A DNA stretch of 64,000 bases. Source: Acidobacteriota bacterium (lineage in GTDB: Bacteria; Acidobacteriota; Thermoanaerobaculia; UBA5066; Gp7-AA6). The notes beneath the pieces were generated by a model that was given only the letters and a program-made list of their open reading frames with translations, was not told the origin of the DNA and did no database searches. Each line of letters starts with the position of its first letter. Position 1 is the first letter of the stretch. The DNA lies in NCBI GenBank assembly GCA_020199905.1, contig JAIVJS010000001.1, forward strand, positions 61,069 through 125,068, given 5' to 3'. A program made the position numbers and the translations under genes. This document shows, in pieces, positions 3,375-64,000 of the stretch.

Positions 3375-3451
3375 GGGGCCGTAGCTCAGGTGGATAGAGC
3401 AAAAGTTTCCTAAACTTTAGGTCGGCGGTTCGAGTCCGCCCGGCCCCACCA
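3375..3451 (+). tRNA. tRNA-Arg (anticodon CCT)
   Basis: Hand-folded cloverleaf: acceptor GGGGCCG/CGGCCCC; D-arm GCTC...GAGC; anticodon stem AAAGT/ACTTT with loop TTCCTAA (anticodon CCT); T-arm GGCGG-TTCGAGT-CCGCC; discriminator A; encoded CCA. Confidence 0.9.
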
Positions 3452-3573
3452 TTTTCATCGCTTTCGCGCTAATTCGTGTGACACATATGTTCCATCGCTC
3501 CGCGGGGGCGGTCACAGACGCCAGTCTCTCCGACTCTTAACTCACAACTGAAGACTGCCAACTGAAAACTCTT

Positions 3574-4024
3574 TCAGAAGAGCGGCTCCGAGATCAGCTG
3601 CTGGCGGGTCACGGAAATGCACGAGCCCGTCATCTGGCCCACCTGGCAGCGGAGCTGGATCGCGACGAAAGTCCCGGACGTGTTGACGAGTCGCAGGCTC
3701 GCCCCCTGATAAGCGTTGACCGCCTGGATCCCGGTGGGCGCGGAGACGATCGTCCACTGCGCCGCCGACAGCTCGTTGTTGCAGACGGGCGTCCCGTTGC
3801 CACACGCTCGCCGCCATCGAGGCCGGCGTCGCCGTCACGGTGCTCACCACCGGGATGACGCCCATGACCTCGAAAATGCGGTTCGCCGCGATATTGAAAT
3901 CGACTCCGGTCGTCGCCGGGTTGGGAGACCCCGTGACCGCCGACGAGAGGGCGAACGTCGTGGCGGACGCCGTCGCCGAAACCAGGATCACGAGCGTCGC
4001 AAGACCGATAAGACGCAATTTCAT
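3574..4024 (-). pseudogene. Frameshifted paralog of the small secreted Cys-containing protein at 60925-61407
   Basis: The N-terminal part (signal peptide MKLRLIGLATLVILVSATASA...EVMGVIPVVSTVTATPASMAAS) is in the frame of track ORF 3542..4024. The homologous C-terminal part (ACGNGTPVCNNELSAAQWTIVSAPTGIQAVNAYQGASLRLVNTSGTFVAIQLRCQVGQMTGSCISVTRQQLISEPLF*) is in the next frame and ends at 3574-3576. The switch lies near 3795-3800. About 8 codons present in the paralog are also missing here. Confidence 0.55.
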
Positions 4025-54314: not shown

Positions 54315-54356
54315 TTGTCAGTTCTCAGTTCTCAGTTCTCAGTTCTCAGTTCTTGG
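54315..54356 (+). repeat. (GTTCTCA)n tandem heptamer array, 4 perfect + 2 degenerate copies, starting 2 nt after the gpsA stop
   Basis: Sequence gttgtca gttctca gttctca gttctca gttctca gttcttg, read directly. Confidence 0.85.
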
Positions 54357-57537: not shown

Positions 57538-60500
57538 GTGGGAGGCTCGACGTGGGTGTCTCTCGGTCCGACGAACGGCGCGGGCCGCATGACGGGGATC
57601 TCTCCTCACCCGACCGACGTCGGAACCGTGCTCGCCGGAGCGGCGGGCGGGGGAGTCTGGAAGACGACGGACGGCGGGGCGAGCTGGGTTTCGCTGACGG
57701 ATGGTTTGAACGACCTGTCGGTGGGAGCGGTCGCCTACGCGCCGTCCTCACCCAACGTCGTCTACCTCGGAACCGGGGAGGGGAGCTACGCGGTCGACTT
57801 CATCCCCGGGATCGGGCTTCTGAAGTCCACGGACGGGGGCGCCACCTGGACCTTGCCCTCCTCGGTCCTGGCGTCACGCTTCCATCGGATCAACGTGCAC
57901 CCGACGAACCCGAACGAGCTGCTGGTGGGGACGAGCCGCGGAGCGCTGCGATCCACCGACGGCGGGGCGAGCTGGGAGACGGTGATCTCGCCGACCGCTT
58001 ACGGGGACGTTCCGGAGATCCTGCGGGACCCGACCGATCCCCGGAACCTCTTCGCCACCACGTGGTGCATCTCGGGAGGGTGCACGTTCAAGACGGCGCA
58101 CGTCCTGAAGTCGACGGACGGAGGCGCCACCTGGACGGACCGCAGCTTCGGTCTGCCGACCGCGAACCCGTCGGACTTCGCCTACGAGCGCACCGCCCTC
58201 GCGCTCTCTCCTTCGAACACGTCGGTCCTCTACGCCGCGCGATCGGTCCGGCCGGCGGCGGGCACGATCATTTCCCACGTCTACAGGACCGTGGACGGCG
58301 GCGCTACATGGACGGACCTGCCCTCGGTGAGCGCACGGAACAGCCGGTATCTCGCCGACCAGTCCTGGTACAACAACACGATCATCGTCTCTCCAACCGA
58401 CTCCAACACGGTAATCGCCGGCGGGACGAGATACCTGCGCTCGACCGACGGCGGAGCCAACTTCACCCCCGTGCTCGACGGGGAGGTCCACGTGGACGCG
58501 CACGACCTGCGGTACCAGGGATCGACGCTCTGGTTCGCCAATGACGGGGGCGTGTGGACGAGCGTCGACGACGGGATCTCCTCGACCGACCGGAACAACG
58601 GGCTCGTGACGCGCCAGTACTACGCGCTCGCGATCGACCCCATCAACCGCAACCGGATTCTCGCCGGCGCGCAGGACAACGGCACCAATCAGCGGATGGA
58701 CGGGGGAGGGACGGTCTGGCGCCCGGTCATCGGCTCCGACGGCTTCGAGTGCGTCGTGAATCCCTTCTCGCCGGCGATCGCCTGGGGGAGCACGCAGCAG
58801 GGACAGATCTTCCGGAGCCGGAACGTCGGCGCCTCGACGGATCCCTCGTTCCAGTCCGTGACCCCGCCCTACGACGCCAACGAGGAGACACCGTTCCTGA
58901 CGGTCCTCCGCAACGACCCGCGCGCCCCTCAGACGATCTATACCGGCTCTTACCGTCTCTGGCGCTCGCGCGACGGCGGCACCGTGTGGGTCCCCCTCCC
59001 CACGACGACCACAGACGGCTCGGCCTGGCCCAGGTCCACGACCGTGACGTCGCTGGCGCTCTCGCGCACGGATCCTCTTCTGATCCTGGTCGGCAAGGAA
59101 AACGGCATCTACCGGTCCGGTGACGGAGGCCAGACCTGGACACCGGCGACCGGAGTTCCGGATCGGGTGCTGACCAATCTCGAGATCGACCCGACCAACT
59201 CCGGCATCGCCTACGCCACCTTCTCCGCGATCACCTTGCCGAGCGTGTACCGGAGCGTCGACGGCGGGTTGACCTGGGCGCCGAGCGCGTCCGGCCTTCC
59301 GGCATTTCCCTCGCAGGTGATCCGCGTCGATCCGACCGATTCCAACGTCGTGTTCGTCGGCACCGACGTCGGCGTCTTCCGTTCGCCGGACCGGGGGGCG
59401 ACGTGGAGCCGTTTCGGCACAGGCCTTCCGAGCTCCTCGGTCCACGACCTGCAGGTGCTGGACGACGGTTCCATGCTCCGTGTCGCGACGCACGGGCGCG
59501 GAATCTGGGAGCTGCAGGTGCCGGCGACCGGAAACAATCCGCCCGTCCCGACCGTCGTCGCTCCCGCGTCGTCGATCGCCGTCCCGCTCGGAACGACGGT
59601 GTCCTTCTCCGGGACGGTGACGGATCCGGATCCTGGAGACACCGCCTCCGGAACCTGGTTCTTCCCGGACACGTCCGAGAACATCCCGCTGCCGGGCGGG
59701 GCGGGCACGGTGGCACACACGTTCCGGCGTGCGGGCTCCTTCCCGGTCGCGCTCTCGGCTCGCGATTCCCGCGGCGCTCTCGGCACCGCCGTCGTTCAGG
59801 TGTCCGTGACGGACAGCGGAGACGCGTGCGCGACGCCGGTCGTGATCCCATCCAACGGTCCCTTCCCGTACGCCGTCCTCGCCAGCAGCGAGTCCGCGAC
59901 GACGGAGGCAACGGATCCTTCGCCCTCGTGCTGGGTGAGCGCCAAGGCGGCGTCGCTCTGGTTCGAGTACACGCCCCCGGCCGACGGCCAGTATGAGATC
60001 TCGACGTGCGGGAGCGCACCCGACACCGTTCTCTCCGTTTTCACCGGCGCCGCGTGCGGTCCGTACACGCCCGTTTCCGGCGGGTGCAATGACGACGCCC
60101 CCGCGTCCTCCGGATGCGGAACACAGGCTTCCCTCGTGACCGTGACCGGCAGGGCGGGACAGACGTTCCGGATCCAGGCCACCGGTTTCGATGAGTCCAG
60201 TCTCGGCTCGTTCGCCCTGAACGTGAGGCCGATTTCCGTGCCGGCGTCTTCGCCCCGGGTCGGCGGAGTGAACGCCGGCGAGGGTCCGGCGCCCGGCGGG
60301 ACCACGGTGCTGATCACGGGCAGCGGATTCCAGAACGATGCCACGGTCTCTTTCGGCGGCGTCGCGGGCACCGACGTCGTCGTCCTCGCGCCGACGCTTC
60401 TCTCCGTGCGAACGCCGGCGCACGCGCCCGGAGACGTGGACGTCTCGGTGACCTCGGGCGGCGGGACCGGGACGCTCTCCCGCGCGTTCGCGTTCACCCC

Positions 60501-60852
60501 GTACACCCCGGTGGCCTGCGCGCCGGGCGATTCGACGCTCTGCATGAACGGCGGCCGCTTTCGCGCTCAGGTCGTCTGGCGTGTTCCGACGCAGAACGCG
60601 GCCGGCCTCGCCTCGGCGGTCGCCCTGACCGGCGATACGGGCTATTTCTGGTTCTTCTCGTCGAACAACATCGAGCTCGTCGTGAAAGTCGTCGACGGCC
60701 GAGGCTTCAATGGCAAATTCTGGGTGTTCTACGGCGCTCTCTCGAACGTGGAGTACACCCTGACCGTCACGGACATCGTGACGGGAGCGGTCCGCGTCTA
60801 CACGAATCCCAGCGGGTTACTGTCGAGCGTCGCGGACACCTCCGCGTTCTAG
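57538..60852 (+). CDS. Large extracellular multidomain protein: about 10 BNR/Asp-box (SxDxGxTW) repeats, PKD domain, PPC-like domain, IPT/TIG domain, and a conserved C-terminal domain of unknown function
   Basis: Repeated TTDGGASW / STDGGATW / TVDGGATW motifs. PKD-like VTDPDPGDTASGTWFFPD...GSFPVALSARDSRGALG. IPT-like TTVLITGSGFQNDATVSFGGVAGTDVVVLAPTLLSVRTPAHAPGDVDVSV. The track start is GTG 57538. An in-frame ATG (57193) and a Tat-like signal peptide lie upstream, separated from the ORF by a TAG at 57220-57222 (see findings). Confidence 0.8.
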   Translation: MGGSTWVSLGPTNGAGRMTGISPHPTDVGTVLAGAAGGGVWKTTDGGASWVSLTDGLNDLSVGAVAYAPSSPNVVYLGTGEGSYAVDFIPGIGLLKSTDGGATWTLPSSVLASRFHRINVHPTNPNELLVGTSRGALRSTDGGASWETVISPTAYGDVPEILRDPTDPRNLFATTWCISGGCTFKTAHVLKSTDGGATWTDRSFGLPTANPSDFAYERTALALSPSNTSVLYAARSVRPAAGTIISHVYRTVDGGATWTDLPSVSARNSRYLADQSWYNNTIIVSPTDSNTVIAGGTRYLRSTDGGANFTPVLDGEVHVDAHDLRYQGSTLWFANDGGVWTSVDDGISSTDRNNGLVTRQYYALAIDPINRNRILAGAQDNGTNQRMDGGGTVWRPVIGSDGFECVVNPFSPAIAWGSTQQGQIFRSRNVGASTDPSFQSVTPPYDANEETPFLTVLRNDPRAPQTIYTGSYRLWRSRDGGTVWVPLPTTTTDGSAWPRSTTVTSLALSRTDPLLILVGKENGIYRSGDGGQTWTPATGVPDRVLTNLEIDPTNSGIAYATFSAITLPSVYRSVDGGLTWAPSASGLPAFPSQVIRVDPTDSNVVFVGTDVGVFRSPDRGATWSRFGTGLPSSSVHDLQVLDDGSMLRVATHGRGIWELQVPATGNNPPVPTVVAPASSIAVPLGTTVSFSGTVTDPDPGDTASGTWFFPDTSENIPLPGGAGTVAHTFRRAGSFPVALSARDSRGALGTAVVQVSVTDSGDACATPVVIPSNGPFPYAVLASSESATTEATDPSPSCWVSAKAASLWFEYTPPADGQYEISTCGSAPDTVLSVFTGAACGPYTPVSGGCNDDAPASSGCGTQASLVTVTGRAGQTFRIQATGFDESSLGSFALNVRPISVPASSPRVGGVNAGEGPAPGGTTVLITGSGFQNDATVSFGGVAGTDVVVLAPTLLSVRTPAHAPGDVDVSVTSGGGTGTLSRAFAFTPYTPVACAPGDSTLCMNGGRFRAQVVWRVPTQNAAGLASAVALTGDTGYFWFFSSNNIELVVKVVDGRGFNGKFWVFYGALSNVEYTLTVTDIVTGAVRVYTNPSGLLSSVADTSAF

Positions 60853-60924
60853 ATCCTCCAGCGGGAACCGGGCCCTCCCATCGCCGGCGCGTCTGTGAAA
60901 GGATCTCTTCAAAAGGAGATCCCC

Positions 60925-61407
60925 ATGAAATTCCGTTCCGGCGCCCCGGCGGTCCTGGTCCTCCTCGCGCTCCTCGTCTCGTCAACGACCCTCGCCAGCA
61001 CGGGCGTCATCTCCGTCACGATCACGGGGACCACGACTCCGCCGCCGAACCCGCTGACTCTCAGTTTTTTCAATAACACCACGCTGGAGGTGATGGCGGC
61101 GCTCCCGGTCGTCAGCACGGTGACGGGCAGCCCTGCTTCGATCGCGGCTTCCCTGAACATGGGAACGACCCTTTTCAACACCTGCGGCAGCACGGCGTGC
61201 AGCGGCGATCTCTGGGCGGGGCAGTGGACGATCGTTTCTGCTCCGACGGGGATACAGGCGGTGGCCGCGTATCAGGGATCTTCGATCAGGCTCGTCAACA
61301 ATTCGGGCTCGAGCGTCAACCTCACCCTGCGTTGTCAGGTGGGGAACATGACCGGCTCCTGCATCTTTCTCATCCGCATCACGCCGATCAGCGACCCCCT
61401 GTTCTGA
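60925..61407 (+). CDS. Small secreted Thr/Ser-rich protein with four conserved Cys; intact member of a paralog family
   Basis: ATG at 60925 with AAGGAG 7 nt upstream (the track's earlier start at 60895 lies inside a hairpin). Signal peptide MKFRSGAPAVLVLLALLVSSTTLAS. Cys pairs at NTCGSTAC and RCQVGNMTGSC. Paralogous to 3574-4024 and to the remnant at 61521. Confidence 0.65.
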   Translation: MKFRSGAPAVLVLLALLVSSTTLASTGVISVTITGTTTPPPNPLTLSFFNNTTLEVMAALPVVSTVTGSPASIAASLNMGTTLFNTCGSTACSGDLWAGQWTIVSAPTGIQAVAAYQGSSIRLVNNSGSSVNLTLRCQVGNMTGSCIFLIRITPISDPLF

Positions 61408-61520
61408 GAGGCCCGTCCCTTCGCGCGTTTCGGAACGAGGAACGCGACGAGCGCGACGTCCCTGGATGCGGTTCCGATCCCTCCGTGACAGGATCCACGG
61501 AAAGGGAGGAGCTCACGAAA

Positions 61521-61580
61521 ATGCGTCCCGGCGTCCTCGCTGTCGTTGCACTCTTCGCCTCCACGACCGCCCCTGGCTGA
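61521..61580 (+). pseudogene. Signal-peptide-only remnant (19 codons) of the small secreted protein family
   Basis: AAGGGAGGAG 8 nt upstream of the ATG. Encodes MRPGVLAVVALFASTTAPG then TGA, resembling the signal peptide of the neighbouring paralog. Nothing homologous follows. Confidence 0.35.
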
Positions 61581-61962
61581 GACCGAGGCGTTGTTGTCTA
61601 CGGGGGTGCGGGTTCCGCGACCCCCGCTTCCACGGCCGTCAGATACGCCCCGCCCTCTGCAGAAGGAACTGGAGCCCGACGGTCGTTTTCCCGACGCCCG
61701 GGTCGCCCTGGAGAGGTAGAGGCGATGGCGGGGGAGCCCCCCCGCCGAGGACCTCGTCAGACCGGGGATTCCGCTGGGGGCCGGAGACCGGAGGCTGTCG
61801 GGCATCAGGTCTTCCTCAAAACCATCGTAAAGGTCGCGATCGTCATATCTTTCAACGCGTGCGTTGCCGCTGCATTGAAGAACCGTGCCTCCCGGCGGGG
61901 AGTCCCCAAAGCGCCGCGATTCTCTACCGGGATCGCCTCCTCGGGAAGATGGGCCCGCGGGG

Positions 61963-62727
61963 ATGATCAGTCCCGAAACCCCTCCCGACGAGAGGCCGGC
62001 CGACGTTTACTACTACGGGACCTGCCTCGTCGATCTCTTCTACCCGGAGGCAGGGCTCTCCGGGATCCGGCTGCTCGAAAGGGAGGGCGTCCGGGTCGTC
62101 TACCCCCAGGGCCAGACGTGCTGCGGCCAGCCGGCCTACAACTCCGGATATTCCTCGGAGGCGCGAGCGGTGGCGAGAAGCCAGATCGAGCGTTTCTCCC
62201 GGCCCTGGCCCGTCGTGGTTCCCTCGGGCTCGTGCGCGGGGATGATGAAGCACTACTACCCGTCGCTGTTCGACGGGGATCCTTTCCTGGAGCGGGCGCT
62301 GGAGTTCGCCGGTCGCATTCACGAGTTGACGTCGTTCCTCGTCCGCGTGCTTCGGGTGCGGCTGGTCGACCGGGGAGAGCCGGCCCGGGTCACGTGGCAT
62401 ACGTCCTGTCATGCGTTGCGGGAAATGGGGATCCGCGACGAGCCGGCGTCCCTCCTGGCGCAGCTCGAGCGCGTCGAGGTGATCCCGCTCGCCCGCGAAA
62501 GCGAGTGCTGCGGGTTCGGCGGCACGTTCGCGGTGAGGCACCCGGAGATCTCCGCGGCGATGGTCGAGGACAAGGCGGCGGCCGTCGCCGCGACCGGAGC
62601 GCCGACCCTTCTCTCCGGGGACGGAGGCTGTCTCCTGAACATCGCCGGCCGGCTCGAGGCGACCGGGCAGCGCGTGCGGCCGGTGCACATCGCCCAATTT
62701 CTGTGGGAGCGCACGCGTGCCCGTTGA
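61963..62727 (+). CDS. lutA: L-lactate utilization protein LutA-like (Fe-S) oxidoreductase (CCG domain)
   Basis: ATG at 61963 (MISPETP...VYYYGTCLVDLFYPEAG). Cys-rich CCG motifs (GQTCCGQPAYNSGY; ESECCGFGGTFAV). Confidence 0.8.
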   Translation: MISPETPPDERPADVYYYGTCLVDLFYPEAGLSGIRLLEREGVRVVYPQGQTCCGQPAYNSGYSSEARAVARSQIERFSRPWPVVVPSGSCAGMMKHYYPSLFDGDPFLERALEFAGRIHELTSFLVRVLRVRLVDRGEPARVTWHTSCHALREMGIRDEPASLLAQLERVEVIPLARESECCGFGGTFAVRHPEISAAMVEDKAAAVAATGAPTLLSGDGGCLLNIAGRLEATGQRVRPVHIAQFLWERTRAR

Positions 62728-64000
62728 GCCCGGGTCTCACCGTTTCCGCGACGCGGCGTCGTCGGCGCTGAAGGACCCGGGTCTGCGCGCCAACTTCCGG
62801 CGCGCGATGGACGGCCTGATCTCCAAGCGCGCCGCACAGTTCGCGGACCCGGTGGAGTGGCGGGATCTGAAACGCCTGGGATCGGCGATCCGGGCTCGAT
62901 CGCTCGCCAGGCTCCCGGAGCTGCTCGAGAGGCTGGAAGGCCGATGTCTGGGAAACGGAATCCAGGTTCGCTGGGCGGAGACCACCGAAGACGCGAACCG
63001 GATCGTGCTCGAGATCCTGCGGTCCCACGGCGCCACGCGCGTCGTCAAGGGAAAGTCCATGGTCTCGGAAGAGATGCACCTGAACGAATTTCTGGAAGAG
63101 CACGGCGTCGAGTCGCTCGAGTCGGATCTCGGCGAATACATCATTCAGCTCGACGGCGAGACCCCGTCGCACATCATCATGCCGGCGATCCACAAGAACC
63201 GGCAGCAGATCGCAAGACTGCTCGGGGAGAAGATCCGGGGCGCCCGCTACACGGAGGACATCGACGAGCTGACCGGAATCGCGCGGCGGGTGCTGCGGAA
63301 GAAGTTCTTCGAGGCGGACGCCGGGATCTCCGGTGTCAACTTCGCGGTCGCGGAGACCGGGACGCTCTGCCTCGTCGAGAATGAAGGGAACGGGCGCATG
63401 TCCACGCACGTTCCGCCGGTGCACATCGCGCTGATGGGGCTCGAGAAAGTGGTCGAGAACCTCGAGGACGTGCCGCCTCTCTACAGCCTGCTGACCCGGT
63501 CGGCGACGGGTCAGAGCATCACCACGTACTTCAACATGATCACGCGGCCGCGTACGGAGGCTGAAAAGGACGGACCGCTCGCCGTGTACCTCGTGATCCT
63601 CGACAACGGCCGCTCCCGGATCTTCGAAGACCCGGAGCTCGCCGCCACCCTGCGGTGCATCCGCTGCGGGGCTTGCATGAACCACTGCCCCGTGTACACC
63701 CGCGTCGGAGGCCATGCCTACGAATCGACGTACCCCGGGCCGATCGGAAAGATTCTGGCTCCGCAGACGGACGGCGTCGGCGCGCGGCACGACCTGGTCG
63801 AGGCGTCCAGCCTCTGCGGCGCGTGCGGCGAAGTCTGTCCCGTCGGAATTCCCATCCCCGAGTTGATCGTGCGCCTGAGGCAGGAAGCCGCACAGCCGGA
63901 GCCGGGGTCGACCGTCCGGGGCGCCGGGACGGGGGGGAGCCGGGGCGAATCTCTCGCCTGGCGGCTGTGGGCGAAGTCGCACCGCCATCCCGTCCTCTAC
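62717..64000 (+). CDS. lutB: L-lactate utilization protein LutB-like (4Fe-4S ferredoxin + LUD/DUF162 domain); 3' end beyond the window
   Basis: Not in the ORF track because no stop is reached. Hand translation from GTG 62717 is open to the window end and contains LCLVENEGNGRMSTHVPPVHIALMGLEK and two Cys clusters (CIRCGACMNHCPVY; CGACGEVCPVG). Confidence 0.8.
   Translation, partial: MPVEPGSHRFRDAASSALKDPGLRANFRRAMDGLISKRAAQFADPVEWRDLKRLGSAIRARSLARLPELLERLEGRCLGNGIQVRWAETTEDANRIVLEILRSHGATRVVKGKSMVSEEMHLNEFLEEHGVESLESDLGEYIIQLDGETPSHIIMPAIHKNRQQIARLLGEKIRGARYTEDIDELTGIARRVLRKKFFEADAGISGVNFAVAETGTLCLVENEGNGRMSTHVPPVHIALMGLEKVVENLEDVPPLYSLLTRSATGQSITTYFNMITRPRTEAEKDGPLAVYLVILDNGRSRIFEDPELAATLRCIRCGACMNHCPVYTRVGGHAYESTYPGPIGKILAPQTDGVGARHDLVEASSLCGACGEVCPVGIPIPELIVRLRQEAAQPEPGSTVRGAGTGGSRGESLAWRLWAKSHRHPVLY

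What the first reader, a model, noticed from the sequence alone, without database searches (positions are those of the whole stretch)
60881..61580. Intact paralog preceded by an SD-sequestering hairpin and followed by a signal-peptide-only remnant of the same family
Directly upstream of the ATG at 60925, GGATCTC-ttcaaaag-GAGATCC forms a 7-bp inverted repeat whose 3' arm overlaps the AAGGAG Shine-Dalgarno. This is a potential translational on/off structure.

110 nt after the gene's stop there is a perfectly SD-led mini-ORF (61521-61580, MRPGVLAVVALFASTTAPG*) that looks like the first 19 codons of another family member. So this locus holds tandem copies, one of them truncated. Together with the frameshifted copy at 3574 this makes three copies, two damaged, in 64 kb.
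Basis: partly seen in the sequence, partly recalled or inferred. Interest (0 to 1): 0.5.

Follow-up and report, generated by a model that had tools for sequence, protein, structure and literature searches.

The report
Dead gene stub beside intact paralog
An intact gene for a small secreted protein of unknown function sits next to the broken-off front end of a sister gene that was destroyed by a 1.1-kb deletion; this is ordinary gene-family turnover, and the hairpin in front of the intact gene shows no sign of being a conserved switch.

Summary
All the described sequence features exist. Gene 60925-61407 encodes an intact 160-aa secreted protein. It belongs to a tiny, unannotated family found only in Thermoanaerobaculia/Acidobacteriota.

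The mini-ORF 61521-61580 really is the N-terminus of another family member. This only shows against the orthologous locus of a sister MAG (L003), not against the window's own paralogs. Window 61421-61647 matches the upstream region plus the first ~42 codons of L003's resident gene P0015 (84% nt; 29/42 aa, E 8e-13). That gene is dead here:
- its original ATG is now ACG;
- +1, +3 and -1 indels have accumulated, and the +1 creates the TGA;
- a 1148-bp deletion removed the rest.

The deletion joined the stub to the first ~50 codons of a convergent KaiC-like ATPase pseudogene (61805->61657, minus strand). The intact gene lies on a 531-bp segment that both syntenic relatives lack.

The copy at 3577-4023 (minus strand) is a true pseudogene, with a 32-bp deletion and two invariant residues lost.

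The hairpin (9 bp, -11 kcal/mol) is real and would mask the SD. However, it is not unusual for this 68% GC window and not conserved across 18 paralog leaders. It also overlaps a conserved -10-like box, so it may not be transcribed from the gene's own promoter.

Verdict: ordinary birth-and-death evolution, low interest.

The parts
57538..60852 (+). Context: 1104-aa secreted BNR/Sortilin-Vps10 + PKD + TIG protein. In the syntenic loci L003 and L017 a family gene follows it directly.
   Evidence: Pfam; synteny
60890..61420 (+). 531-bp segment carrying the leader and the intact paralog. It is absent from both syntenic relatives: L003 has 4 nt here, and L017 has only its own single copy. Imperfect direct repeats lie near its ends (GGCCCTCCCAT at 60871-60881, GGCCCGTCCCTT at 61410-61421).
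   Evidence: blastn; alignments; repeat read from the sequence
60895..60904 (+). GTGAAAGGAT, an extended -10-like box (TGn + nAnnAT). It is conserved at the same distance from the ATG in most paralog upstream regions. This is an inferred promoter element, which would place the transcription start around 60910-60913.
   Evidence: Alignment A3 columns 12-21; upstream sequences. The promoter role is an inference; the strict sigma-70 scan found nothing.
60901..60922 (+). Inverted repeat / RNA hairpin GGAUCUCUU-CAAA-AGGAGAUCC. It masks the SD AAGGAG (60913-60918).
   Evidence: -11.0 kcal/mol; not conserved; unique in the window
60925..61407 (+). Intact family gene (P0001, 160 aa). It has a Sec-type signal peptide, 4 Cys and a C-terminal DPLF, keeps every invariant family residue, and is predicted to be a jelly-roll beta-sandwich.
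61421..61520 (+). Upstream region of the dead resident gene. It contains a -10-like box GTGACAGGAT (61485-61494), SD GGGAGGAG (61504-61511), and the original start codon mutated ATG->ACG (61515-61517).
   Evidence: 93% identical to L003 3052-3141
61521..61580 (+). Mini-ORF MRPGVLAVVALFASTTAPG*. It starts at the former Met3 of the resident gene and ends at a TGA created by a +1 insertion in the C-run 61570-61573.
61521..61647 (+). Full coding remnant (~42 codons) of the resident family gene, the ortholog of P0015. It carries +1, +3 and -1 indels relative to L003.
61648..61656 (.). Deletion junction, with 9 nt of unclear origin. Relative to L003, 1148 bp (L003 3266-4413) are missing.
61657..61805 (-). 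Remnant (~50 codons) of a KaiC-like ATPase gene. It has its own ATG (61805) and a GAGGA SD, and the Walker A motif GDPGVGKT. It shows three indels relative to L003.
   Evidence: Pfam PF06745: 3e-14 on the stitched translation and 9e-6 on a single frame; alignment
61960..62727 (+). Context: lutA-like CCG-domain gene, the first gene of a lutABC-like operon, divergent from the KaiC-like remnant.
3577..4023 (-). Third family copy, a pseudogene. It has a 32-bp frameshifting deletion between 3805 and 3804 that removes the first conserved Cys. The invariant residues W97 and F148 are both replaced by Ser.
   Evidence: the same product occurs on 3 contigs

Best explanation
This locus is a snapshot of birth-and-death turnover in a small, lineage-restricted family. 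The family encodes ~160-aa secreted jelly-roll proteins of Thermoanaerobaculia (Acidobacteriota).

Shown:
- In the two available syntenic relatives, a single family gene follows the large BNR/Sortilin gene. In the window that resident gene survives only as its upstream region plus ~42 codons (61421-61647).
- It was inactivated by a 1148-bp deletion. The deletion also removed most of a convergent, already decaying KaiC-like/response-regulator gene, of which ~50 codons remain on the minus strand (61805->61657).
- The stub has since lost its first ATG and gained three small indels. One of these creates the stop that defines the 19-codon mini-ORF. The mini-ORF is therefore a by-product, not a gene.
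- A divergent but intact paralog (60925-61407, at most ~60% identical over full length to any known member) sits on a 531-bp segment that both relatives lack. It now occupies the slot behind the BNR gene.

Inferred:
- That segment was inserted in this lineage, so in effect the resident gene was replaced by a paralog.
- The family genes have their own extended -10-type promoter 20-26 nt upstream of the ATG.

Hairpin:
- The inverted repeat at 60901-60922 is real. As RNA it would occlude the SD in any transcript that contains both arms, for example read-through from the BNR gene.
- It is a private feature of this copy. It has no detectable conservation, is not exceptional for this GC-rich genome, and its 5' arm overlaps the -10-like box.
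- A dedicated regulatory role is therefore unproven and, on balance, unlikely.
For: Family and fold:
- 24 homologs were found, all from Acidobacteriota, with no Pfam domains.
- Only 16 cluster representatives exist among 1.84 billion proteins.
- There are no Pfam, NCBIfam or PDB sequence hits.

Remnant:
- P0015 begins MKMRPGVLAVVALFAST...GSATPASTAVGY.
- BLASTP gives 29/42 identity, E 8e-13.
- Synteny blocks: window 57845-60889 = L003 1-3047; 61421-61647 = L003 3052-3265; 61653-63076 = L003 4414-5837.
- The base-level alignment shows the indels and the ATG->ACG change.
- Indel density is 3 in 127 nt and 4 in 149 nt in the remnants, against 1 in 768 nt in lutA.

KaiC-like gene:
- The window remnant hits PF06745.
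- The L003 ORF covers KaiC positions 50-210 plus Response_reg positions 31-108.

The second relative, L017, also has a single copy and lacks the KaiC-like gene.

Copy 3 has a 32-bp deletion and has lost invariant W and F.

Family-wide decay and tandem arrays:
- Tandem arrays and further frameshifted copies occur in other MAGs.
- A fourth, intact copy lies elsewhere in the same genome.

Hairpin.

The structure is reproducible in independent assemblies.
Against: - The direction of the 531-bp indel (insertion here versus two losses elsewhere) rests on only two relatives and on nucleotide identity as a proxy for phylogeny.
- No donor locus for the intact paralog was found.
- The promoter assignment rests on motif conservation only. 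The strict sigma-70 scan found nothing, and no -35 element is evident.
- L004 and L012, among the closer relatives of the intact gene, also have SD/AUG-occluding hairpins at the same place, with one compensatory-looking G-C to A-U change. A subclade-specific structure is therefore not excluded.
- All data come from MAGs, and there are no expression data.
Confidence: 0.8

Rival explanations
1. The hairpin is a genuine translational control element. Under this view it is an SD-sequestering stem that keeps the gene silent until it is melted or opened by a trans-acting factor, or it silences read-through transcripts from the BNR gene while promoter-proximal transcripts are translated.
For: - The stem is stable at 9 bp and -11 kcal/mol, and it persists in longer contexts.
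- Its SD-opening cost is the highest among the 22 family leaders.
- L004 and L012 have analogous stems at the same position, with GGAUC:GAUCC changed to GAAUC:GAUUC.
- There is no terminator between the BNR gene and this gene, so read-through is plausible.
Against: - There is no consensus structure in 18 paralog leaders.
- The imposed structure pairs no better than shuffled or slid controls.
- It ranks 4th of 33 in the window's background, and 78 comparable inverted repeats exist in the window.
- The 5' arm overlaps the conserved -10-like box, so own-promoter transcripts would lack it.
- There is no Rfam match.
- From general knowledge, a perfect 9-bp stem is unlike known RNA thermometers, which rely on mismatches and weak pairs.
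Confidence: 0.15
2. The inverted repeat acts at the DNA level. It would be a 7-N8-7 palindromic operator for a dimeric repressor, sitting between the -10-like box and the start codon.
For: - The geometry (7-bp arms, 8-bp spacer, 22 bp in total) and its position over the predicted -10/TSS region fit a classical operator.
- The sequence is unique in the window.
Against: - There is no adjacent regulator gene.
- It is not conserved in paralog upstream regions.
- No second copy of the site exists in the window.
- This reading is pure inference.
Confidence: 0.07
3. The two copies arose by an old tandem duplication in situ, and the upstream copy was lost independently in the L003 and L017 lineages. 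This contrasts with a recent insertion in the window's lineage.
For: - Tandem arrays of this family are common elsewhere (L005 x2, L006 x3, L008 x3, L018 x5).
- The upstream regions of the two window copies share the GTGA-AGGATC box.
- L003's intergenic region could be read as a recombinant of the window's two intergenic regions.
Against: - It needs two independent clean losses, against one gain.
- No relic of the upstream copy remains in L003's 124-nt spacer.
- The intact copy is only ~55% identical to the P0015 type, and it has no ortholog in any relative.
Confidence: 0.25
4. The mini-ORF is a functional small gene, either a secreted or membrane micropeptide or a regulatory leader peptide.
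For: It has an intact strong SD (GGGAGGAG) at 9-nt spacing and an ATG. Its upstream region is 93% identical to L003.
Against: - It is the N-terminus of a gene whose remainder was deleted, and its stop comes from a +1 slip in a C-run.
- Homology to P0015 continues past the stop, in frame again after a compensating -1.
- There is no downstream gene on the same strand for it to regulate; the next feature is a convergent pseudogene.
- Its upstream conservation equals the neutral level of the neighbouring pseudogene.
Confidence: 0.03

Closest known systems
Bacterial pseudogene relics produced by deletional decay (gene remnants in intergenic DNA)
   Same: - A truncated 5' stub retains its promoter/SD region.
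- Frameshifting indels have accumulated, and a start codon has been lost.
- A large deletion joins two convergent genes.
- The same KaiC-like gene is at three different stages of erosion in three related genomes.
   Different: Nothing essential. The only unusual aspect is that an intact divergent paralog sits immediately upstream, so the locus still encodes one family member.
SD-sequestering stem-loops in 5' leaders (RNA thermometers such as ROSE/fourU, and translational repressor hairpins)
   Same: The 3' arm pairs with the AAGGAG SD a few nucleotides before the AUG. The predicted opening cost is ~12 kcal/mol.
   Different: - There is no Rfam match.
- There is no conservation or covariation.
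- The stem is a perfect 9 bp, without the mismatches or weak pairs typical of thermometers (general knowledge).
- The 5' arm overlaps a probable -10 element.
Small jelly-roll beta-sandwich proteins (nucleoplasmin-core/HDT1 fold, GOLD, cupin, viral capsid jelly rolls, Ena/DUF3992 spore-appendage subunits)
   Different: - The family is secreted and bacterial, with four conserved Cys and an invariant C-terminal DPLF.
- Its function is unknown. The fold is too generic to assign one.
KaiC-family (RecA-superfamily) ATPases, PF06745
   Same: The minus-strand remnant keeps the N-terminal GIPGLDEVLGGG motif and the Walker A motif GDPGVGKT.
   Different: Only profile positions ~2-48 of 231 remain, with frameshifts. 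It is a pseudogene, not a member with function.

Membership tests
Unnamed Thermoanaerobaculia ~160-aa secreted protein family (alignment A1) | Full-length match, including the invariant motifs PVV-TV-G-PAS, W..QW.I.S, C.VG.MTG..F and the C-terminal P.F | tested here: met
   Gene 60925-61407 scores 6.4e-70 against the family HMM over positions 1-160. All invariant columns are present.
Unnamed Thermoanaerobaculia ~160-aa secreted protein family (alignment A1) | The remnant 61521-61647 derives from a family member | tested here: met
   - The family HMM does not detect it, and it does not resemble the window's paralogs.
- It is orthologous to the 5' end of P0015: 84% nt over 229 nt in a syntenic position, and 29/42 aa, E 8e-13.
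Unnamed Thermoanaerobaculia ~160-aa secreted protein family (alignment A1) | Copy at 3577-4023 (minus strand) is an intact member | tested here: not met
   - HMM hits are split over two frames, covering positions 1-75 and 84-160.
- It has a 32-bp deletion relative to its ortholog L016, and the changes W97S and F148S.
SD-sequestering riboregulator / RNA thermometer | A stem that pairs with the SD | tested here: met
   MFE and centroid structures both pair 60914-60922 with 60901-60909.
SD-sequestering riboregulator / RNA thermometer | The structure is conserved, with covariation, in related leaders | tested here: not met
   - RNAalifold finds 0 pairs.
- 50.0% of cells pair, against 49.6% in shuffles, and slid controls are equal.
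- Caveat: only paralogs were available, not orthologs.
SD-sequestering riboregulator / RNA thermometer | Both arms are present in the mature transcript | not testable with these tools
   No TSS data exist. The conserved -10-like box at 60895-60904 predicts a start near 60910-60913, inside the loop (inference).
Any Rfam family | Covariance-model match | tested here: not met
   No match at E <= 1 across 60500-62300.
KaiC (PF06745) | N-terminal motif and Walker A | tested here: met
   E 3e-14 on the stitched translation. A single frame gives 25.7 bits, E 9e-6, against a gathering threshold of 26.6.
KaiC (PF06745) | Complete ATPase domain in one reading frame | tested here: not met
   Only profile positions 2-48 of 231 are present. 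There are three indels relative to L003, and the rest is deleted.
Intrinsic terminator | GC-rich stem followed by a U-run | tested here: not met
   No terminator-like site in 60700-62000. The hairpin is followed by CCAUGAAAUUCC.

The most novel reading that the evidence does not exclude
The family could be a contingency-type repertoire of secreted or surface jelly-roll proteins under diversifying pressure, for example from phage, predators or competitors. Under this reading resident copies would be repeatedly replaced by divergent paralog cassettes. The new cassette at this locus would carry a private SD-masking hairpin, so that read-through transcripts from the BNR gene stay silent and only the cassette's own promoter gives protein. 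The recurrent tandem arrays, the independent pseudogenes in at least four MAGs, and the orphan status of the intact copy are compatible with this reading but do not demonstrate it.
Probability: 0.08. Interest if true: 0.55.

Novelty: new member of a known kind. Interest (0 to 1): 0.22.

Why it matters
The significance is mostly practical.

- A plausible-looking, SD-led mini-ORF turns out to be the stump of a deleted gene. Similarity to the paralogs in the same genome would have missed this; only the orthologous locus reveals it.
- The locus documents an uncharacterised, very narrowly distributed family of secreted jelly-roll proteins in Thermoanaerobaculia. Only about 16 clusters at 50% identity exist among 1.84 billion proteins. 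Its copies are duplicated in tandem and inactivated unusually often.
- This gives a small lead for anyone studying cell-surface or secreted proteins of soil Acidobacteriota.
- It does not open a long-standing question, and nothing here would surprise a specialist in bacterial genome evolution.

Tried and rejected
1. tblastn and blastn of the mini-ORF and of 61481-61900 against the window's two paralogs gave only chance-level hits. BLASTP of the remnant against P0001 gave E 1.5. The family HMM run on the six-frame translation did not detect the remnant. Similarity within the window is therefore uninformative.

2. An Rfam scan of 60500-62300 at E <= 1 found nothing.

3. The sigma-70 promoter and intrinsic terminator scan of 60700-62000 found nothing.

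4. The metagenome-contig scans failed to find more loci. The family alignment recovered no confirmed relatives. A degenerate pattern across the hairpin and start codon gave no match.

5. The contig of the closest full-length homolog, P0002, has no DNA available. No true ortholog of the 60925 gene could therefore be examined for hairpin conservation.

6. The afdb50 fold library was not available.

7. A profile search of PDB sequences and an NCBIfam search gave no meaningful hit.

8. P0038, a 1396-aa hit in the representative search, is a spurious match from Thr/Ala/Ser-rich repeats, judged from its sequence.

9. One literature search was too unspecific to be informative: none of the listed papers mentions Thermoanaerobaculia.

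10. A programmed frameshift in the family was considered and rejected. Frameshifts in different copies and genomes lie at different positions and are accompanied by loss of invariant residues.

11. An assembly artefact was considered and rejected.

Full report
**Observation**

The window is 68% GC. The sequence reads as the first stage described.
- GGATCTC (60901-60907) and GAGATCC (60916-60922) are a perfect inverted repeat. As RNA it extends to a 9-bp stem (GGAUCUCUU/AGGAGAUCC) with loop CAAA.
- The stem is -11.0 kcal/mol alone and is kept in the MFE and centroid structures of longer contexts.
- Its 3' arm covers the AAGGAG Shine-Dalgarno upstream of the ATG at 60925.
- The ORF 60925-61407 encodes 160 aa.
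- 113 nt after its stop, GGGAGGAG (61504-61511) precedes an ATG at 61521. This opens a 19-codon ORF, MRPGVLAVVALFASTTAPG*, that ends at 61580.
- A third family copy lies on the minus strand at 4023->3577 and is split between two frames.

**The gene and its family**

The 160-aa protein has no Pfam, NCBIfam or PDB sequence match.
- A search of 5.8 billion proteins gave 24 relatives. All come from Acidobacteriota/Thermoanaerobaculia MAGs or metagenomes, and all are about 160 aa.
- A profile search of 1.84 billion cluster representatives gave only 16 hits. Several of these are truncated or frameshifted products.
- The alignment shows a Sec-type signal peptide, four conserved Cys, long invariant motifs and an invariant C-terminal DPLF. 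The window protein keeps all invariant residues.
- AlphaFold2 with this alignment gives an all-beta model with pLDDT 79.6.
- I read this as a secreted, probably disulfide-stabilised jelly-roll protein whose function cannot be assigned.
- The window protein is an orphan within the family. Its best full-length identity to any member is about 60%.

**The mini-ORF is a real remnant, but only the ortholog shows it**

Against the two paralogs in the window the mini-ORF has no similarity above chance, at either protein or DNA level. The family HMM does not see it either.

The family alignment revealed that P0015, from another MAG, begins MKMRPGVLAVVALFAST...GSATPASTAVGY. Read through its stop codon, the window sequence gives MRPGVLAVVALFASTTAPG*DRGVVVYGGAGSATPASTAVRY. 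This is 29/42 identical to P0015, E 8e-13.

P0015's contig (L003) is the orthologous locus. Its gene order is BNR/Sortilin gene, then P0015, then a convergent KaiC-like/response-regulator ORF, then lutA and lutB. blastn gives three collinear blocks:
- window 57845-60889 = L003 1-3047 (86%);
- window 61421-61647 = L003 3052-3265 (84%);
- window 61653-63076 = L003 4414-5837 (91%).

The base-level alignment shows the following.
- The original start codon is lost: L003 has ATGAAAATG and the window has ACGAAAATG, so the mini-ORF starts at the former Met3.
- A +1 insertion in the C-run 61570-61573 creates the TGA at 61578-61580.
- A +3 insertion lies near 61590, and a -1 deletion lies near 61608.
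- Homology ends at 61647.

The remnant is therefore about 42 codons plus the upstream region, not just a signal peptide. It is missing 1148 bp relative to L003.

**What lies on the other side of the deletion**

The minus strand of 61805->61657 reads MPDSLRSPAPSGIPGL/DEVLGGG.../LQGDPGVGKTTVGLQFLL across two frames.
- It hits Pfam KaiC (PF06745) at profile positions 2-48 of 231. The E-value is 3e-14 for a hand-stitched translation. For an unedited single frame it is 9e-6 at 25.7 bits, just under the gathering score of 26.6.
- It keeps its ATG (61805) and a GAGGA upstream, and it has three indels relative to L003.
- In L003 the rest of this gene is present but also damaged. There is one frameshift, and KaiC positions 50-210 run directly into response-regulator positions 31-108.
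- In a second syntenic relative, L017, a different deletion has removed the gene almost entirely.

A convergent gene that was already decaying was therefore eroded independently in three lineages. In the window's lineage the deletion also took the 3' two-thirds of the family gene. Indel density marks both remnants as unconstrained: 3 in 127 nt and 4 in 149 nt, against 1 in 768 nt in lutA.

**The intact copy sits on an extra 531-bp segment**

Both L003 and L017 have a single family gene, of the P0015/P0008 type, behind the BNR gene.
- The window's 60890-61420, which carries the leader, the hairpin and the intact gene, has no counterpart there. L003 has 4 nt in its place.
- Short imperfect direct repeats (GGCCCTCCCAT and GGCCCGTCCCTT) lie near the two ends of the segment.
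- By parsimony this is an insertion in the window's lineage, one gain against two clean losses. That is an inference from two relatives. An old tandem duplication followed by two losses is the main alternative.
- Either way the outcome is the same. A divergent paralog is now the only functional family gene at this site.

**The third copy and the rest of the genome**

Against its ortholog in L016 (87% nt), the copy at 4023->3577 has a 32-bp deletion between 3805 and 3804.
- The deletion removes the first conserved Cys and shifts the frame. The invariant W97 and F148 are both replaced by Ser.
- The frameshifted product is found on three contigs, so the deletion is not an assembly error.
- A fourth, intact member (P0006) lies elsewhere in the same genome.

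The count of three copies in the window with two damaged is correct. The genome has at least four copies.

**Family-wide pattern**

In species-representative genomes the family is multicopy. One MAG has 7 loci and another has 4.
- Tandem arrays are frequent, and they include a second, more divergent subfamily that also ends in DPLF.
- Other copies are independently broken. One ortholog group has three frameshifts plus W97R in L008, and one frameshift in L018. In L006 it appears to survive only as a signal-peptide-like stub lacking an ATG, a reading based on translation alone.
- The breaks are at different positions, which argues against programmed frameshifting and for ordinary decay.

**The hairpin**

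It is real and strong. Three lines of evidence argue against a dedicated switch.

1. Background. The window has 78 perfect 7-bp inverted repeats with loops of 3-10 nt. The predicted cost of freeing this SD (11.8 kcal/mol) ranks 4th of 33 gene starts. The z-score in context is only -1.74.

2. Conservation.
   - Across 18 paralogous leaders, RNAalifold predicts no pairs.
   - Imposing the window's stem on that alignment gives 50.0% paired cells, against 49.6% in shuffles, and the slid controls are no worse.
   - Many members have an essentially open SD, at 1-2 kcal/mol.
   - L004 and L012 do have analogous stems, so a subclade-specific structure cannot be excluded.
   - No diverged ortholog of this gene exists in the available data. 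The two other assemblies are identical here.

3. Position.
   - The same alignment shows a conserved GTGnnAnnAT box 20-26 nt upstream of the ATG. This is an extended -10 pattern, with the TG and the A2/T6 positions conserved.
   - In the window it is GTGAAAGGAT at 60895-60904.
   - If it is the promoter, which is an inference, transcription would start near 60910-60913 in the hairpin loop. The 5' arm would then be absent from the mRNA (one search shows that the stem disappears for such starts).
   - Only read-through transcripts from the BNR gene would carry the stem. No terminator separates the two genes.

The hairpin sequence is unique in the window and matches no Rfam family.

**Comparison with known things, and verdict**

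- The remnants are textbook deletional pseudogene relics.
- The hairpin resembles SD-sequestering leaders in geometry. It fails the conservation test and lacks the weak pairs of RNA thermometers (general knowledge).
- The protein family is new to the databases but has a generic fold.

I classify the finding as a new member of a known kind: lineage-specific multigene family turnover. Interest is low.

Noticed in passing
window 61657-61805 (minus); L003 3643-4575; L017 6410-6562: A KaiC-like ATPase/response-regulator gene divergent from lutA is at three different stages of erosion in three syntenic genomes. L003 has one frameshift plus a KaiC-to-RR fusion. The window keeps only the first ~50 codons. 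L017 appears to keep only sequence aligning to the last ~87 nt of the response-regulator ORF.
   Followed up: partly
window 59712-59970 (inside the 1104-aa BNR/Sortilin gene): Assembly GCA_020200255.1 (L002) lacks these 259 bp, which splits the gene into 780-aa and 236-aa products. The window and GCA_046262695.1 have the gene intact. This could be strain variation or an assembly collapse.
   Followed up: no
window 3375-3576: tRNA-Arg(CCT) lies at 3375-3451, directly beside the copy-3 pseudogene. The spacer looked relatively AT-rich by eye (not measured). The pseudogene's 3' flank (TGAAAGAGTTTTCAGTTGGCAGTCTTCAGTTGTGAG) is conserved with L016 and contains repeated TTCAGTTG motifs.
   Followed up: no
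alignment A3 columns 12-21; window 60895-60904 and 61485-61494: A conserved GTGnnAnnAT box lies 20-26 nt upstream of the ATG in most family members. It is probably an extended -10 promoter giving very short leaders, and it could help define promoter consensus in Thermoanaerobaculia.
   Followed up: partly
L006 ~3555-3640; L008 3633-4115; L018 5983-6465: The MKIRRGVF-type ortholog group of the family appears to be a pseudogene in three different MAGs. L008 has 3 frameshifts and W97R. L018 has 1 frameshift. L006 appears to keep only a signal-peptide-like stub, read from translation only. This parallels the window's remnant.
   Followed up: partly
L006 3785-4243 and 4600-5058; L008 4296-4751; L018 7790-8263 and 9395-9859: A second, more divergent subfamily (~30-39% identity; MRK..., ...GACLFNV.T.P.ADPLF) occurs in tandem with the main subfamily. 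No copy of it is present in the window.
   Followed up: partly
window 54318-54324: A 7-bp indel (TCAGTTC) and scattered SNPs distinguish the window from assembly GCA_046262695.1. This shows that the assemblies represent different strains or populations.
   Followed up: no
L017 5926: The syntenic family gene in L017 seems to start with TTG (LSLRPS..., where relatives have MSIRPG). L019's copy has CAT where relatives have ATG, so it may have lost its start codon.
   Followed up: no
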